Shown: positions 7,728 through 44,625, numbered from the stretch's first letter. The stretch is 64,000 bases of DNA from a virus (IMGVR_UViG_3300020576_007607:5448-69447); one strand, 5' to 3'. Made by a program: numbers and translations. Notes: generated from the sequence alone by a model not told the origin.

Positions 7728-7738
7728 TACATTATATA

Positions 7739-9022
7739 TTATTTCAACAATATCCTATTTGGCATCCCAGGCATGTATATCCCAATCAGATCCACCAACT
7801 CCTTCTTAACGACAGGAGTCAAGCTTTTCGATCTTTCCCTGTTCAGCAAGGTCATCCACTCACTGACCACCTTATTGAACTTGAACGACTCGGTATACCC
7901 GAATATCCTTTTCCTGAACTGGTCGACATCAATCGTGTCGTCACCTTCCCTGGACATCCATTCGGAAAAGCGGGAGACGAACCGCTCGACACCCGAGATG
8001 TTCCGATCCGACCAAACACCACCGTCAAAGAAATGAGAAATAAACATCAAATAGAATCTCATGATGTCAGAATCGTAGTCGTCTGGATTGACAACATTTC
8101 CTCTTGACTTTGACATCTTATTCCCATCACCCGCCAATATCATTCCGTTATGGATCAATTTTTTGAATGGTTCTTCACATGGAACTACACCAATGTCATA
8201 CAAAAACATATGTATGAAACGACTGTATATCAAATGATTAGTGGCCAATTCCACCCCGCAACAGTAGGTATCAACCTGTCTGTACTTCTCCATTGAACAG
8301 ATCTCATTTCGGTTTTCTGGATCACAATACCTGATGAAATAAAAAGATGAGTCCACAAAGGTGTCCAATGTATCAGTTTCACCTTCGATCGGTATCGGAG
8401 CCCCGAATTTCCTCTGCCTACCAACCGACCAATCTTTCAAATTTGTCAACCAGTTTCTCTGTATTTTCTTAGTAGATTCTGGATAGTCCAACCAATCCAA
8501 GTTTTTAATCAACCTCTCACGGTAATCTGTTATCCTAAAATACCACTGGTCCATCTTTCTGATCTCAATCCTTTCCGAACACCTCTCACATCTGTCATCC
8601 TTGCACTGCTCGTTGGCCAAGGCAGTCCCGCACGACGGGCACCAATTGACATCGCCGAATTTCTTGTAGGCCAACCCGTGTTCCTTCAATTTGGAGAATA
8701 TCCACTGGGTCCACCTCACATATTCGGGATCATGTGTGGAAAACATCATTTCATACTCGGTTCCCATCGATGACAACTGTCTTTTGAAATTTCGGATGTT
8801 GTCCCAGGCGACATCACTCGGATCCTTACCAACTTTTTGAGCATATAATTCGGTCGGCAATCCATGAGTATCGAATCCCATCGGTTGGAATACCTCATTG
8901 CCCTGATACCTCAAGTATCTGGCGTACGAATCCATAATCCCGTAGGAATAAGCGTGTCCCATGTGAAGAGCTGATGAACTAGGAAACGGAAAGGCTGAAA
9001 GTATATAAATTTGTTTTTTCAT
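7739..9022 (-). CDS. leuS: minimal leucyl-tRNA synthetase (no CP1 editing, leucine-specific or C-terminal domain)
   Basis: AFPFPSSSALHMGH (HIGH), PMGFDTHGLPTE, CPSC/CERC Zn knuckle, QWYFRIT, DTLDTFVDSS, KMSKSRGN; QRNW joined almost directly to DWSVGRQR. Confidence 0.92.
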   Translation of the reverse strand: MKKQIYILSAFPFPSSSALHMGHAYSYGIMDSYARYLRYQGNEVFQPMGFDTHGLPTELYAQKVGKDPSDVAWDNIRNFKRQLSSMGTEYEMMFSTHDPEYVRWTQWIFSKLKEHGLAYKKFGDVNWCPSCGTALANEQCKDDRCERCSERIEIRKMDQWYFRITDYRERLIKNLDWLDYPESTKKIQRNWLTNLKDWSVGRQRKFGAPIPIEGETDTLDTFVDSSFYFIRYCDPENRNEICSMEKYRQVDTYCCGVELATNHLIYSRFIHMFLYDIGVVPCEEPFKKLIHNGMILAGDGNKMSKSRGNVVNPDDYDSDIMRFYLMFISHFFDGGVWSDRNISGVERFVSRFSEWMSREGDDTIDVDQFRKRIFGYTESFKFNKVVSEWMTLLNRERSKSLTPVVKKELVDLIGIYMPGMPNRILLK

Positions 9023-9105
9023 ATCTTTATTTTTTTTAAATGTGAGCAAATTTCTTCTCTAAATCCATAATAACAAGCTGCTCCCTATGTGTAGGGATAT
9101 GGTTT

Positions 9106-9216
9106 TTAATTAAAAAAAGAACCATCGATACAACTAAGTCCTTTTTGAATACCCATTAGTTGATGAGATCCGGAACCGGAAGGATAAGGGAAGGCGACCA
9201 ATACATATTTTTTCAT
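9106..9216 (-). pseudogene. 36-aa ORF whose first 18 aa resemble a LeuRS N-terminus
   Basis: MKKYVLVAFPYPSGSGSH matches the LeuRS FPYPSGxGLH motif, then diverges. Confidence 0.65.
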
Positions 9217-9239
9217 AATTCTATTTTTTATTTTTGGCA

Positions 9240-9270
9240 CAAAAAAACCGGACCTTTTGAGTCCGGTTTT
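9240..9270 (-). terminator. attenuator terminator hairpin
   Basis: AAAACCGGAC-TCAAAAG-GTCCGGTTTTTTT on the minus strand. Confidence 0.85.
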
Positions 9271-9288
9271 CAGATGAAGCAAAATCAT

Positions 9289-9348
9289 TCACTTCCGAAC
9301 TCTGGTCGGGATTGAAAGTAGAGCAAGAAGCAATGAATTCTGTTTCAT
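9289..9348 (-). promoter_or_regulatory. leucine leader peptide MKQNSLLLALLSIPTRVRK
   Basis: TTG CTT CTT GCT CTA CTT (5 Leu in 6 codons); GAGTTCGG (9302-9295) can pair with the terminator arm CCGGACTC (9266-9259). Confidence 0.8.
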
Positions 9349-9356
9349 ATTGTTTG

Positions 9357-9624
9357 TGGTTCCACCGAGAATCGAACTCAGATCTGGAGATTAGCTTACC
9401 ACTATGATTTTCATCACCTTTCGTTTGTGGTCTGGACTTTACCTTTACCATATTGTTTCCAACTTAGGTAATCGCCATCAAGTCTCTACACCTTCTATTT
9501 TAATAGCTTGGCTCGGTATTGGCATTTTAAAGCGTTCACCGAATTTGACGATATCCAACAAATCAATTTCTTGATAAGTCGCTCCATTAAAAGTCACCCG
9601 TTTTATCCATTAAACTATGGAACC
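9357..9624 (-). tRNA. tRNA-Leu(UAA), intron-containing; exons 9624-9591 and 9411-9357
   Basis: Acceptor GGTTCCA/TGGAACC + A73, D-arm GTTT/AAAC, anticodon loop CTT^AAAA, 21-nt variable region, T-arm CTGAG-TTCGATT-CTCGG; CCA not encoded. Confidence 0.88.
9412..9590 (-). ncRNA. group I intron (IC3-like), 179 nt, no ORF
   Basis: P/Q/R/S cores GTCAAATTCGGTGAA, AATACCGAGCCAAGC, GAAGGTGTAGAGACTTGATGGCG, AAGGTAAAGTCCAG; P1 CTT/GAG; GAAA loops in P2, P8 and P9; terminal G. Confidence 0.9.
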
Positions 9625-9635
9625 GTTTGTTTTGT

Positions 9636-9652
9636 TATATATTACAAATATA
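9636..9652 (-). promoter_or_regulatory. tandem TATATTTG and TAATATATA motifs upstream of the tRNA
   Basis: Both recurrent motifs lie 12-28 nt before tRNA G1. Confidence 0.65.
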
Positions 9653-9748
9653 TCAACTTGTTTTCAAATGACCAAAATATTCGACAGGAAAAATTCGGCT
9701 ACCTCCCTACAATATTCCCTTTCTATTTCATAGAGATTCTTGTTCATA

Positions 9749-10151: not shown

Positions 10152-10622
10152 TTAGATTATTCTGATGTTGGTGATTTCAATTTCTAGTTTTCCGGCGGGG
10201 ATATCAACCTCGATATGATCTCCGACTCTATGGTTCATAAGTGATTTTCCAATCGGGCTGTTTGGTGATATTTTTCCTTCCTTCAGGTTTATTTCATGCT
10301 CGGGAACAATCCTATATTCGGTTTCCTTTCCAGTTTTCTTATTTTTGAACTTGACCCATGTCAGAAGTTGGACAGTACCATCATCTATAACCCCTTCGAT
10401 TATCTGACAGTTGGAAAGTATCTTCCCAATCTTACTCATCTTGTCGTTTAAATCATCCAAAGCCTGTTTGGCCACATCATACTCTGCATTCTCACTCAAG
10501 TCACCCTTATCCCTAGCATCACTAAGATTTTGAAGACATTCCCTAAGATCAACACTCTTCATGTGTTGAAGTTCAGATTCCATTTTCAAATATCCCTCAC
10601 GGGTCATTGGTATTTTTTCCAT
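10152..10622 (-). CDS. greA: transcription elongation factor GreA
   Basis: MTREGY, ARDKGDLSENAEY, ISPNSPIGKSL. Confidence 0.93.
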   Translation of the reverse strand: MEKIPMTREGYLKMESELQHMKSVDLRECLQNLSDARDKGDLSENAEYDVAKQALDDLNDKMSKIGKILSNCQIIEGVIDDGTVQLLTWVKFKNKKTGKETEYRIVPEHEINLKEGKISPNSPIGKSLMNHRVGDHIEVDIPAGKLEIEITNIRII

Positions 10623-15726: not shown

Positions 15727-16317
15727 ATGAAATGGATAAAAAAATACGAAACGTTCGTCAACGACGACAACAGGGGTGAGGACACCCAATATCCGGAACT
15801 GAACCCGGTGATAAAAATGGAAGCCGCCGAATACGTCGACTCCAAGCTGAGATCAAACGAGTACGCCGAGATATTCAACGCCGTCGGCGTCGATCTTCCG
15901 CAGGATCTTGATTCCGACGAGCTCGAGAAGGCATTCGACCAGGTTCGCGAAAAAGCAATCCAGTATTACATACAGAATCCCGAGGAGATAAAATCCCCCG
16001 CGACACACCGGACATTCAAGGTAAATGCCGGAGACGGAATACCGAGAACCAACCGTGTCGGTGGAACCTCACAGGCGGCATCCCGAGTGGTCGGCGAAAG
16101 CAAGATCAACCTCGATGCCGAGATGGACATCACCGAGGATGAGATGGACCTGTTCAAAAGGGAAGAACCCCTTATAGATCTTATCCGTCAGGGAAAGGTC
16201 AGGATGTCCAACAAGAAGGTCCATTTCAGCGAAACCGACAAGGAAACAATCGAAACCCTCGACATGTATCTCGAGATGGACAAGAAAACACTGAAGTCAG
16301 ACAATGAAACACATTAA
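15727..16317 (+). CDS. hypothetical protein with N-terminal tag (MKWIKKYETF)
   Basis: TAATATATA at 15714-15722. Confidence 0.75.
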   Translation: MKWIKKYETFVNDDNRGEDTQYPELNPVIKMEAAEYVDSKLRSNEYAEIFNAVGVDLPQDLDSDELEKAFDQVREKAIQYYIQNPEEIKSPATHRTFKVNAGDGIPRTNRVGGTSQAASRVVGESKINLDAEMDITEDEMDLFKREEPLIDLIRQGKVRMSNKKVHFSETDKETIETLDMYLEMDKKTLKSDNETH

Positions 16318-44578: not shown

Positions 44579-44625
44579 GATGATATATATTAAATTTCAA
44601 TTCCGTAAGTTTAATATATAACCAT

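What the first reader, a model, noticed from the sequence alone, without database searches (positions are those of the whole stretch)
9240..9348. Classical ribosome-mediated leucine attenuator in a phage
The 19-aa leader has five Leu codons in six positions (TTG CTT CTT GCT CTA CTT). Segment GAGTTCGG can pair either with upstream CCGAC (1:2) or with CCGGACTC (2:3 antiterminator), competing with a 10-bp terminator plus U7. The architecture parallels E. coli leuL. None of the control codons is UUA, so it mostly senses host-tRNA charging rather than the adjacent phage tRNA (inference).
Basis: partly seen in the sequence, partly recalled or inferred. Interest (0 to 1): 0.8.

Follow-up and report, generated by a model that had tools for sequence, protein, structure and literature searches.

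The report
Leucine attenuator gating a phage LeuRS
A huge bacteriophage puts a tiny leucine-rich test gene and a switchable transcription stop in front of its own leucyl-tRNA synthetase gene, so it probably makes the enzyme only when ribosomes read leucine codons slowly. The switch is the textbook trp/leu-operon type, but I found no paper describing it in a virus.

Summary
A 19-codon ORF (9348..9289) has five Leu codons in six positions. It is followed by a 10-bp hairpin and U7 (9270..9241). Segment GAGUUCGG can pair with the leader's 5' half or with the terminator's 5' arm.

The gated gene is the phage's own CP1-less leucyl-tRNA synthetase (LeuRS). Ten related huge-phage loci, including GenBank LR745206.1 and LR756501.1, carry a Leu-run mini-ORF plus terminator upstream of LeuRS or of tRNA-Leu arrays plus LeuRS. 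In every one, a segment near the leader stop codon mimics that locus's own terminator 3' arm. Cognate pairings averaged -13.7 kcal/mol against -8.1 for swapped pairings, and no reshuffled assignment among 200,000 permutations scored better.

78 mostly cellular leuS loci show none. One 508-kb relative has cognate leaders before its Ile, Val, His, Gln, Ser and Leu synthetases and before its tRNA arrays.

Two features are peculiar to this window. An intron-split tRNA-Leu(UAA) sits between promoter and leader. A stump of the LeuRS 5' end lies between terminator and gene.

The LeuRS ORF is written in UUG (23 of 28 Leu codons), while the sensor uses mostly CUN.

This scan noted the same class earlier on other phage DNA. 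I found no publication. Nothing has been tested experimentally.

The parts
9635..9676 (-). Promoter region. It holds a Bacteroidota-type -33 TTTG / -7 TAnnTTTG pair directly followed by the phage's recurrent TAATATATA motif.
   Evidence: Pattern matches: 12 promoter pairs against 1.5 expected, and 19 TAATATATA copies against 0.5 expected in the window. The motif block is nearly identical to the one that directly precedes the leader ATG in L089 and L138.
9591..9624 (-). tRNA-Leu(UAA) exon 1. It ends in U34 of the anticodon.
   Evidence: Reading. The spliced form is called tRNA-Leu(taa) by ARAGORN.
9412..9590 (-). Group I intron (179 nt) in the anticodon loop. It ends in G.
   Evidence: Rfam RF00028, 57.7 bits against a gathering score of 50, E 4.9e-12.
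9357..9411 (-). tRNA-Leu(UAA) exon 2, with a long variable arm. The discriminator A is at 9357, and CCA is not encoded.
9289..9348 (-). Leader ORF of 19 codons plus TGA. The ATG lies 8 nt after the tRNA.
   Evidence: Its first four codons are homologous to the leaders of L089 and L138.
9316..9333 (-). Control codons 6-11: TTG CTT CTT GCT CTA CTT.
9320..9348 (-). Region 1. This is the 5' arm of the anti-antiterminator hairpin and covers the start codon and the Leu codons.
   Evidence: MFE fold and the no-ribosome fold with region 4 withheld, dG -22.0.
9274..9303 (-). 3' arm of the 1:2 hairpin. Its first 10 nt (9303-9294, core GAGUUCGG) are region 2, the strand that switches partner.
9258..9271 (-). 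Region 3. This is the terminator 5' arm plus the start of the loop. CCGGACUC (9266-9259) pairs with region 2 in the antiterminator.
9241..9254 (-). Region 4 (terminator 3' arm) and the U7 tract.
9106..9216 (-). 36-codon stump. Its first 18 codons match the consensus LeuRS N-terminus. It starts 24 nt after the U tract, where relatives have the real LeuRS start.
   Evidence: family consensus. There is a weak full-length alignment to the first ~185 nt of the real gene.
7739..9022 (-). Gated gene: a 427-aa LeuRS without an editing domain, with HMGH and KMSKS motifs present. 23 of its 28 Leu codons are TTG.
   Evidence: TIGR00396 leuS_bact E 2e-113; Pfam; large family of ~420-aa phage homologues; codon counts.

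Best explanation
This is a ribosome-mediated (leader-peptide) transcription attenuator that makes synthesis of the phage's own leucyl-tRNA synthetase depend on how fast ribosomes read Leu codons.

Transcription starts at the promoter at 9676-9635. It first produces the intron-containing tRNA-Leu(UAA), then the 19-codon leader.

- Ribosome reaches the stop codon (charged tRNA-Leu is plentiful). It covers region 2 (9303-9294). The terminator (9270-9244 plus U7) forms, and transcription ends before the LeuRS stump and gene.
- Ribosome stalls on the Leu codons (9333-9316). Region 1 is held open and region 2 is free. Region 2 pairs with the terminator's 5' arm as that arm emerges. The terminator cannot form, and RNA polymerase reads on into LeuRS.
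- No translation. Regions 1 and 2 pair and the terminator forms, so the default is off.

Shown here: the sequence elements, the alternative pairings, their geometry relative to the stop codon, conservation and covariation in relatives, and the cognate nature of the gated gene.

Inferred: that the leader is translated, that stalling occurs, and that read-through rises when Leu charging is limited.
For: 1. The anatomy is at the stated coordinates.

2. The 132-nt fold has z = -4.4.

3. Folds with region 4 withheld and a ribosome footprint imposed give three states.
   - A-site on Leu codons 6-11: the 2:3 antiterminator forms, dG -14.3.
   - A-site on the stop codon: only -1.8 of structure remains.
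   - No ribosome: the 1:2 hairpin forms, dG -22.0.
   - The same three states appear in L001 (LR745206.1), L089, L136 and L138. L093 shares the stalled and stop-codon states, but its antiterminator also forms with no ribosome.

4. Leu-run mini-ORFs plus terminators lie upstream of LeuRS in L001, L089, L093, L136, L138 and L148. They lie upstream of tRNA-Leu arrays plus LeuRS in L122, L143, L149 and L161 (LR756501.1).

5. In a swap test on the window and nine of these loci (L161 was found later), each locus's upstream segment was paired with each locus's terminator arm.
   - Cognate pairs averaged -13.7 against -8.1 for non-cognate pairs.
   - No reshuffled assignment among 200,000 permutations scored better than the true one.
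   - For the window: -13.7 against -3.3 to -8.1.

6. On five alignable loci, 95.6% of antiterminator cells are paired, against 29-51% when partners are slid, with 2 double changes. The terminator has 96.7% paired and 4 double changes.

7. Region 2 lies within -26 to +15 nt of the stop codon in all ten attenuators tested.

8. Controls.
   - Among amino-acid runs followed by terminators in 891 kb of phage LeuRS loci, Leu is the only enriched residue.
   - All ten rows for the proposed leaders, from nine ORFs in eight loci, are on the LeuRS strand upstream of the gene.
   - The other 12 Leu rows are nested starts of one 42-aa ORF after the LeuRS gene in L145-L147.
   - 741 kb of mostly cellular leuS loci give none on the gene strand.

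9. In the 508-kb relative G001, leaders rich in Ile, Val, His, Gln, Ser+Arg and Leu precede IleRS, ValRS, HisRS, tRNA-Gln+GlnRS, tRNA-Ser/Arg+SerRS and LeuRS. Mixed leaders match mixed tRNA arrays. None of 200,000 permutations reaches the observed cognate score.

10. Promoter and leader start are homologous to L089 and L138, where there is no room for another promoter between terminator and LeuRS.
Against: - There is no experimental or expression data.
- At equilibrium the full-length RNA always folds into the terminator. The model therefore depends on co-transcriptional kinetics that cannot be computed here.
- In this window a 36-codon stump and about 220 nt separate the U tract from the real LeuRS start. 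Gating of the full gene assumes no hidden promoter or terminator in between. I saw neither motif there, but absence of a motif is weak evidence.
- The leader AUG is only 8 nt from the tRNA 3' end. tRNA processing could compete with ribosome loading.
- The polymerase that uses the TAATATATA-type promoter is unknown, and so is its coupling to ribosomes.
- Only about 11 of some 60 phage LeuRS loci carry the element.
- One member (L093) has a weak antiterminator of 5 bp, with shuffle fraction 0.07.
Confidence: 0.85

Rival explanations
1. The attenuator is real in the lineage but is a relic here. After the LeuRS 5' end was duplicated or replaced, leaving the stump, the full gene is expressed independently. 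The switch then only decides whether the stump is transcribed.
For: The stump ORF (9216-9106) occupies the place of the real start in relatives. The real ATG lies 222 nt after the U tract.
Against: All switch elements are intact and energetically strong. I found no -33/-7 pair and no TAATATATA motif between 9240 and 9023. There is no hairpin plus U-run on the minus strand there. The LeuRS ORF keeps the single-codon Leu usage typical of gated relatives.
Confidence: 0.08
2. The hairpin plus U7 is simply the terminator of the tRNA-Leu transcription unit, and the Leu-rich ORF is a chance reading frame.
For: The terminator follows the tRNA by about 90 nt. Short ORFs are common, with roughly 1,200 mini-ORFs in the window.
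Against: The same promoter and the same leader start occur in L089 and L138 without any tRNA. In-frame Leu runs recur in ten other loci with different nucleotide sequences. Region 2 covaries with each locus's terminator. It is the only Leu-run mini-ORF with a terminator in the window.
Confidence: 0.04
3. The leader RNA is a ribosome-independent switch. It would be read by uncharged tRNA-Leu (T-box-like) or by LeuRS protein binding its own mRNA, as at the thrS operator.
For: Synthetase genes are often controlled this way in Firmicutes and in E. coli thrS (established knowledge). The RNA is highly structured.
Against: No T-box or other Rfam family appears, even at E up to 5. What is conserved across loci is an in-frame run of Leu codons with start and stop, not a specifier loop or a tRNA-like fold. 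In G001 the conserved feature changes to the cognate amino acid at each synthetase gene.
Confidence: 0.03

Closest known systems
E. coli pheM-pheST attenuator, and the classical attenuators predicted upstream of leuS and trpS in Streptomyces (PMC1262725)
   Same: A leader peptide rich in the cognate amino acid, with antiterminator and terminator hairpins, stands directly upstream of an aminoacyl-tRNA synthetase gene. The logic is the same: low charged tRNA leads to more synthetase.
   Different: Those are cellular genes of Proteobacteria and Actinobacteria. This one is viral and lies in a phage with Bacteroidota-type promoters. It gates a truncated synthetase without an editing domain. In relatives it also gates arrays of tRNA-Leu genes. 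There is no sequence homology.
   Same: A run of Leu codons in a short leader ORF, the 1:2 / 2:3 / 3:4 alternative hairpins, and an intrinsic terminator. Non-UUR sensor codons are preferred (PMC1183508).
   Different: leuL gates leucine biosynthesis, not tRNA charging. There is no Rfam match, even at E up to 5. Here the leader is shorter (19 codons against 28 for leuL, from my own knowledge), and it lies downstream of a co-transcribed tRNA.
T-box leaders of leuS in Firmicutes
   Same: Transcription attenuation of a synthetase gene in response to the charging state of the cognate tRNA.
   Different: A T-box reads uncharged tRNA directly and needs no translation. No T-box features or Rfam match are present here. 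The conserved element is a translated codon run.
Leader-peptide attenuators gating phage tRNA arrays and synthetases, as noted earlier in this scan on other phage genomes (for example e1-5633662, e1-5326844, e1-5617988). These are unpublished AI notes.
   Same: The same design. I re-derived it independently on the relative G001 before reading those notes (then 75).
   Different: In this window the switch gates the synthetase alone. The only tRNA gene sits upstream of the leader, outside the switch. It carries a group I intron.

Membership tests
Ribosome-mediated leader-peptide transcription attenuators (trpL / hisL / leuL / pheM type) | Short ORF with start and stop codon in the transcribed leader of the regulated gene | tested here: met
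   19-codon ORF at 9348..9289, downstream of the promoter at 9676-9635 and upstream of LeuRS.
Ribosome-mediated leader-peptide transcription attenuators (trpL / hisL / leuL / pheM type) | Cluster of codons for the amino acid that the regulated gene product handles | tested here: met
   Five Leu in codons 6-11. The downstream gene is LeuRS. It is the only such ORF with a terminator in the window.
Ribosome-mediated leader-peptide transcription attenuators (trpL / hisL / leuL / pheM type) | Intrinsic terminator between leader ORF and structural gene | tested here: met
   10-bp hairpin plus U7 at 9270-9241, dG -13.7 to -15.9. It is conserved in position in ten other loci.
Ribosome-mediated leader-peptide transcription attenuators (trpL / hisL / leuL / pheM type) | Antiterminator that shares a strand with the terminator, supported by covariation | tested here: met
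   The GAGUUCGG with CCGGACUC duplex has dG -13.7. The swap test was unbeaten among 200,000 permutations. On five alignable relatives, which do not include the window, 95.6% of antiterminator cells are paired with 2 double changes.
Ribosome-mediated leader-peptide transcription attenuators (trpL / hisL / leuL / pheM type) | Anti-antiterminator (1:2) that includes the control codons, and a stop codon placed so that a terminating ribosome masks region 2 | tested here: met
   9348-9320 pairs with 9303-9274. Region 2 ends 3 nt before the stop codon. With a ribosome at the stop, only -1.8 kcal/mol of structure remains.
Ribosome-mediated leader-peptide transcription attenuators (trpL / hisL / leuL / pheM type) | Read-through rises when the cognate aminoacyl-tRNA is limiting and depends on leader translation | not testable with these tools
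   This needs in vitro or in vivo assays.
Rfam Leu_leader and other curated leader families (sequence and structure homology) | Significant covariance-model match | tested here: not met
   Only RF00028 (group I intron) matched in 9000-9700, even at E up to 5. The element is analogous to the enterobacterial families, not homologous.
T-box riboswitch | Specifier loop, T-box sequence, and an Rfam T-box match | tested here: not met
   No match at gathering score or at E up to 5.

The most novel reading that the evidence does not exclude
The switch may be one module of a phage-wide system that supplies translation spare parts on demand. This reading has four parts.

1. Codon-matched leader peptides sense shortage of each charged tRNA. 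They gate the matching tRNA arrays and synthetases.
2. The synthetases are written so that they can be made during that very shortage. Some have no cognate residue at all. Others use a single cognate codon that the sensor avoids.
3. In this window the division of labour would be explicit. The sensor reads mainly CUN codons. The LeuRS ORF is written in UUG.

A plausible purpose is to survive host defences or starvation that deplete particular tRNAs or block their charging.
Probability: 0.5. Interest if true: 0.9.

Novelty: new variant of a known kind. Interest (0 to 1): 0.8.

Why it matters
Leader-peptide attenuation is a textbook bacterial mechanism. As far as I could find, it has not been described in a virus or for phage-encoded translation genes (the huge-phage paper PMC7162821 does not mention attenuation).

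If it is real, huge phages do not merely carry synthetases and tRNAs. They also monitor decoding speed codon by codon and deploy these parts conditionally. That would turn the old question of why phages encode tRNAs and synthetases into a testable one: what depletes charged tRNA-Leu during infection?

The accompanying codon design (sensor codons differ from enzyme codons, and relatives have Leu-free LeuRS) is an extreme natural case of cognate-amino-acid avoidance. It also offers compact, portable parts for synthetic biology.

Tried and rejected
The contigs of the closest LeuRS homologues (P0002-P0016, 67-75% identity) could not be fetched.
- The single metagenome scan used patterns that are too general and returned mostly cellular LeuRS. 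I reused those loci as a negative control.
There is therefore no expression, 3'-end or splicing evidence.
- MAFFT could not place the tRNA insertion or align the window's attenuator with its relatives (A2 and A3). I used a swap-and-permutation test instead, plus a 5-locus alignment (A4).
- Equilibrium folding of the full leader always gives the terminator. This is uninformative for a kinetic switch, so I replaced it with folds that withhold region 4.
- Brute-force splice-junction testing with ARAGORN does not discriminate. I chose the junction by group I rules (U before the 5' splice site, G at the intron end) and by the canonical U34/A35 site.
- An Arg-run mini-ORF with a terminator at 15934..15875 lies inside a plus-strand ORF. 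I rejected it as chance.
- An Asn-run 'leader' in G001 overlaps the AsnRS start, and I dropped it.
- The Asp 'leader' in G001 has only two adjacent Asp and is weak.
- No other synthetase gene appeared among ten large ORFs of the window.

Full report
**What is there**

Every feature in this section lies on the minus strand.

- A promoter block sits at 9676-9635. It holds a Bacteroidota-type -33 TTTG / -7 TAnnTTTG pair, immediately followed by TAATATATA.
- Both motifs are strongly over-represented in the window. There are 12 promoter pairs against 1.5 expected, and 19 TAATATATA copies against 0.5 expected.
- Next comes a tRNA gene at 9624-9357. ARAGORN misses it because a group I intron splits its anticodon loop (Rfam RF00028, 57.7 bits).
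- Splicing at U34/A35 gives a type II tRNA-Leu(UAA).
- Eight nucleotides after the discriminator base, the 19-codon ORF of the finding begins (9348..9289). Codons 6-11 are TTG CTT CTT GCT CTA CTT.
- Nineteen nucleotides after its stop codon, the A-U base of the terminator hairpin begins. The terminator is a 10-bp hairpin with U7 (9270-9241).
- Twenty-four nucleotides further on starts a 36-codon ORF (9216-9106). Its first 18 residues are a near-perfect LeuRS N-terminus.
- The complete 427-aa LeuRS gene starts at 9022. It matches TIGR00396 at E 2e-113 and has no CP1 editing domain.
- The contig is an IMG/VR record of 69 kb, estimated 13% complete. The phage is therefore about half a megabase.
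- Its closest GenBank relatives are the 634-kb and 735-kb phages of Al-Shayeb et al. 2020. That paper assigns them to a clade predicted to infect Bacteroidetes (PMC7162821).

**The switch in this window**

- The 132-nt leader folds much better than shuffles: dG -37.6, z -4.4.
- At equilibrium the terminator always wins. That is expected for a kinetic switch.
- When region 4 is withheld to mimic a polymerase that has not yet made it, three states appear.
  - No ribosome: the 5' half of the leader, including the Leu codons (9348-9320), pairs with 9303-9274, dG -22.0.
  - Ribosome A-site on any of Leu codons 6-11: region 2 (9303-9294, core GAGUUCGG) pairs with CCGGACUC (9266-9259) in the terminator's 5' arm, dG -14.3.
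  - Ribosome on the stop codon: region 2 is covered and only -1.8 kcal/mol of structure remains, so the terminator can form.

**Comparative evidence**

- A profile scan of IMG/VR gave about 55 loci with the same minimal LeuRS.
- Leu-run mini-ORFs followed by a terminator lie on the LeuRS strand at these loci:
  - upstream of LeuRS: L089, L093, L136, L138, L148 and L001 (LR745206.1);
  - upstream of arrays of five to seven tRNA-Leu genes plus LeuRS: L143, L149 and L161 (LR756501.1);
  - upstream of one tRNA-Leu, one tRNA-Ser and LeuRS: L122. Five more tRNA-Leu genes lie downstream of its LeuRS.
- The peptides share little except the Leu run. Nucleotide sequences and Leu codons differ from locus to locus.
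- In every locus a segment at or near the leader's stop codon (-26 to +15 nt) imitates that locus's own terminator 3' arm.
- I paired each locus's upstream segment with every locus's terminator arm, using the window and nine relatives. L161 was found later and is not in this test.
  - Cognate duplexes averaged -13.7 kcal/mol and non-cognate ones -8.1.
  - No reshuffled assignment among 200,000 permutations scored better than the true one.
  - The true assignment is also the best of all 720 for the six loci with unrelated terminators.
  - For the window: -13.7 against -3.3 to -8.1.
- On the five alignable loci:
  - the antiterminator is paired in 95.6% of cells, against 29-51% when partners are slid, with two double changes;
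  - the terminator is paired in 96.7% of cells, with four double changes.

**Controls**

- On both strands of the window, 8 mini-ORFs have at least 4 Leu in 6 codons. Only this one has a terminator.
- In 891 kb of phage LeuRS loci, Leu is the only amino acid whose runs are enriched before terminators.
  - Ten of the 22 Leu rows belong to the proposed leaders. They come from nine ORFs in eight loci, and all sit upstream of LeuRS on its strand.
  - The other 12 rows are nested starts of one 42-aa ORF after the LeuRS gene in L145-L147.
- In 741 kb of mostly cellular leuS loci there is none on the gene strand.

**Generality**

I fetched the whole 508-kb genome that holds L093 (G001, 97% complete). 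I scanned it for any amino-acid-run mini-ORF followed by a terminator.

| Leader content | What follows the terminator |
|---|---|
| Ile run | IleRS |
| Val run | ValRS |
| Alternating His | HisRS-like gene |
| Gln run | four tRNA-Gln genes and GlnRS |
| Ser/Arg alternation | tRNA-Ser and tRNA-Arg genes and SerRS |
| Leu run | LeuRS |
| Three mixed leaders | tRNA arrays whose amino acids they spell |

These assignments rest. None of 200,000 permutations of leader against operon reaches the observed cognate score. This makes a ribosome-read signal, rather than a protein- or tRNA-binding RNA, by far the simplest reading of the Leu element.

**Codon design**

- The window's LeuRS uses TTG for 23 of its 28 Leu codons. 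TTG makes up 19.5% of Leu codons in 47 long ORFs of the window (P = 1.6e-12). Four of the five sensor codons are CUN.
- In L001, L089 and L093 the LeuRS uses only TTG, and the leaders never use it.
- Pooling the window with L001, L089, L093 and L138: leaders have 1 TTG in 24 Leu codons, and LeuRS genes have 91 in 99. Fisher P = 3e-17.
- Other family members are nearly all CTG. L122 uses only CTT, CTC and CTA, and it has tRNA-Leu(GAG) just upstream.
- The 508-542-aa LeuRS of L143, L148, L149 and L161 contain no leucine at all. Their leaders sample at least five of the six Leu codons, and all six in L149 and L161.
- In G001, each synthetase avoids its own amino acid:
  - IleRS, ValRS, AspRS and HisRS have none of their own amino acid;
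  - GlnRS and AsnRS have one each;
  - SerRS uses only AGY codons.
- This fits enzymes meant to be made when their own product is scarce. It also fits the selective-charging theory, in which sensor codons should be the starvation-sensitive ones. For E. coli that theory ranks UUG and UUA as the least sensitive (PMC1183508).

**Peculiarities of this window**

- The promoter block and the first four leader codons are homologous to L089 and L138. In those loci the promoter abuts the leader ATG.
- Here the 268-bp intron-bearing tRNA gene lies between promoter and leader, flanked by CAAAC on both sides. The tRNA is therefore made whenever the promoter fires and lies outside the switch. In relatives, tRNA-Leu genes lie behind the switch.
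- The stump occupies the position of the real LeuRS start in relatives. It aligns weakly with the first ~185 nt of the full gene. This suggests duplication or replacement of the 5' end.
- I found no promoter motif and no minus-strand terminator between the U tract and 9022. Gating of the full gene is likely but is an inference.

**Comparison with what is known**

- Mechanistically this is a classical leader-peptide attenuator. All sequence-level defining features are met.
- It is not homologous to the curated enterobacterial leader families, and it is not a T-box.
- Synthetase genes under such control are known or predicted in cells: pheST in gamma-proteobacteria, and leuS and trpS in Streptomyces (PMC1262725).
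- Full-text searches found nothing for phages or for tRNA genes. The library lacks most subscription journals, so this is not proof of absence.
- This scan's own earlier notes describe the same class, and the avoidance of cognate amino acids, on other phage genomes. I read those notes after deriving both on G001.

**Caveats**

- No experiment or transcript data supports the model.
- The polymerase and its coupling to ribosomes are unknown.
- tRNA processing 8 nt from the AUG could interfere with ribosome loading.
- The element is present in only about 11 of some 60 phage LeuRS loci.
- L093's antiterminator is weak.
- The LeuRS genes of L136 and L138 are frameshifted in their contigs.

Noticed in passing
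window 9357-9624 (-); intron 9412-9590: A tRNA-Leu(UAA) gene is split at U34/A35 by a 179-nt group I intron (Rfam 57.7 bits), so ARAGORN finds no tRNA in the window. The intron core is 80% identical over about 160 nt to a stretch of LR756501.1, 1.6 kb downstream of that phage's LeuRS. It also matches a Pelagibacter phage and a marine phage contig.
   Followed up: partly
window 9106-9216 (-): This 36-codon ORF begins with a consensus LeuRS N-terminus. That start is closer to the family consensus than the full gene's own start. The rest decays into a weak, gapped copy of the gene's first ~185 nt. It looks like a 5'-end duplication or replacement scar.
   Followed up: partly
window 7739-9022 (-), and loci L089-L141: Minimal phage LeuRS genes restrict leucine to essentially one codon. 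The window has TTG in 23 of 28. L089, L090, L093 and L121 are 100% TTG. L095, L101 and L108 are mostly CTG. L122 uses only CTT, CTC and CTA. This also holds in loci without an attenuator.
   Followed up: partly
L143:2501-4060, L148:2408-4036, L149:2501-4036, L161:2986-4512 (LR756501.1): Four LeuRS proteins of 508-542 aa contain no leucine at all. At 8% Leu the chance of this is about 1e-19 for each. The leaders upstream sample at least five of the six Leu codons, and all six in L149 and L161.
   Followed up: partly
G001 (IMGVR_UViG_3300049793_000366), loci L175-L200: This 508-kb phage has cognate leader-plus-terminator cassettes before IleRS (51619), ValRS (396545), HisRS (415056), tRNA-Gln x4 plus GlnRS (393928) and tRNA-Ser/Arg plus SerRS (412151). 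Three mixed tRNA arrays (319910, 407257, 419437) have them too. Its IleRS, ValRS, AspRS and HisRS contain none of their own amino acid.
   Followed up: partly
G001:121630-121702: ARAGORN calls a tRNA with a CUA anticodon, an amber suppressor type, in this phage. This raises the possibility of TAG recoding. I did not examine it.
   Followed up: no
L149:1155-1227, L143:2179-2490, L122:4100-4176 and others: Several genes that ARAGORN calls tRNA-Leu in the gated arrays are only 73-77 nt long. They therefore lack the long variable arm typical of bacterial tRNA-Leu. They sit next to LeuRS genes that lack the usual C-terminal and editing domains.
   Followed up: no
window, 19 sites (for example 1150-1171, 7733-7741, 44584-44620): TAATATATA occurs 19 times against 0.5 expected, often just upstream of gene starts. 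It is a candidate phage-specific promoter element. It coexists with 12 host-type -33/-7 promoter pairs.
   Followed up: partly
window 10152-10622 (-): This ORF is a phage-encoded GreA/GreB-type transcript-cleavage factor, with both Pfam domains at E 1e-22 to 1e-25. It lies 0.5 kb upstream of the attenuator's promoter.
   Followed up: no
L136:2495-3767 and L138:2501-3756: The LeuRS genes behind these two attenuators are interrupted by a frameshift in the contigs, near codon 195 and codon 235. This could be an assembly error, a pseudogene or programmed frameshifting.
   Followed up: no
L002:2650-2990: About 330 nt of non-coding sequence, apparently structured, lies between a terminator and this locus's LeuRS start. 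It has no Leu leader and no Rfam match.
   Followed up: no
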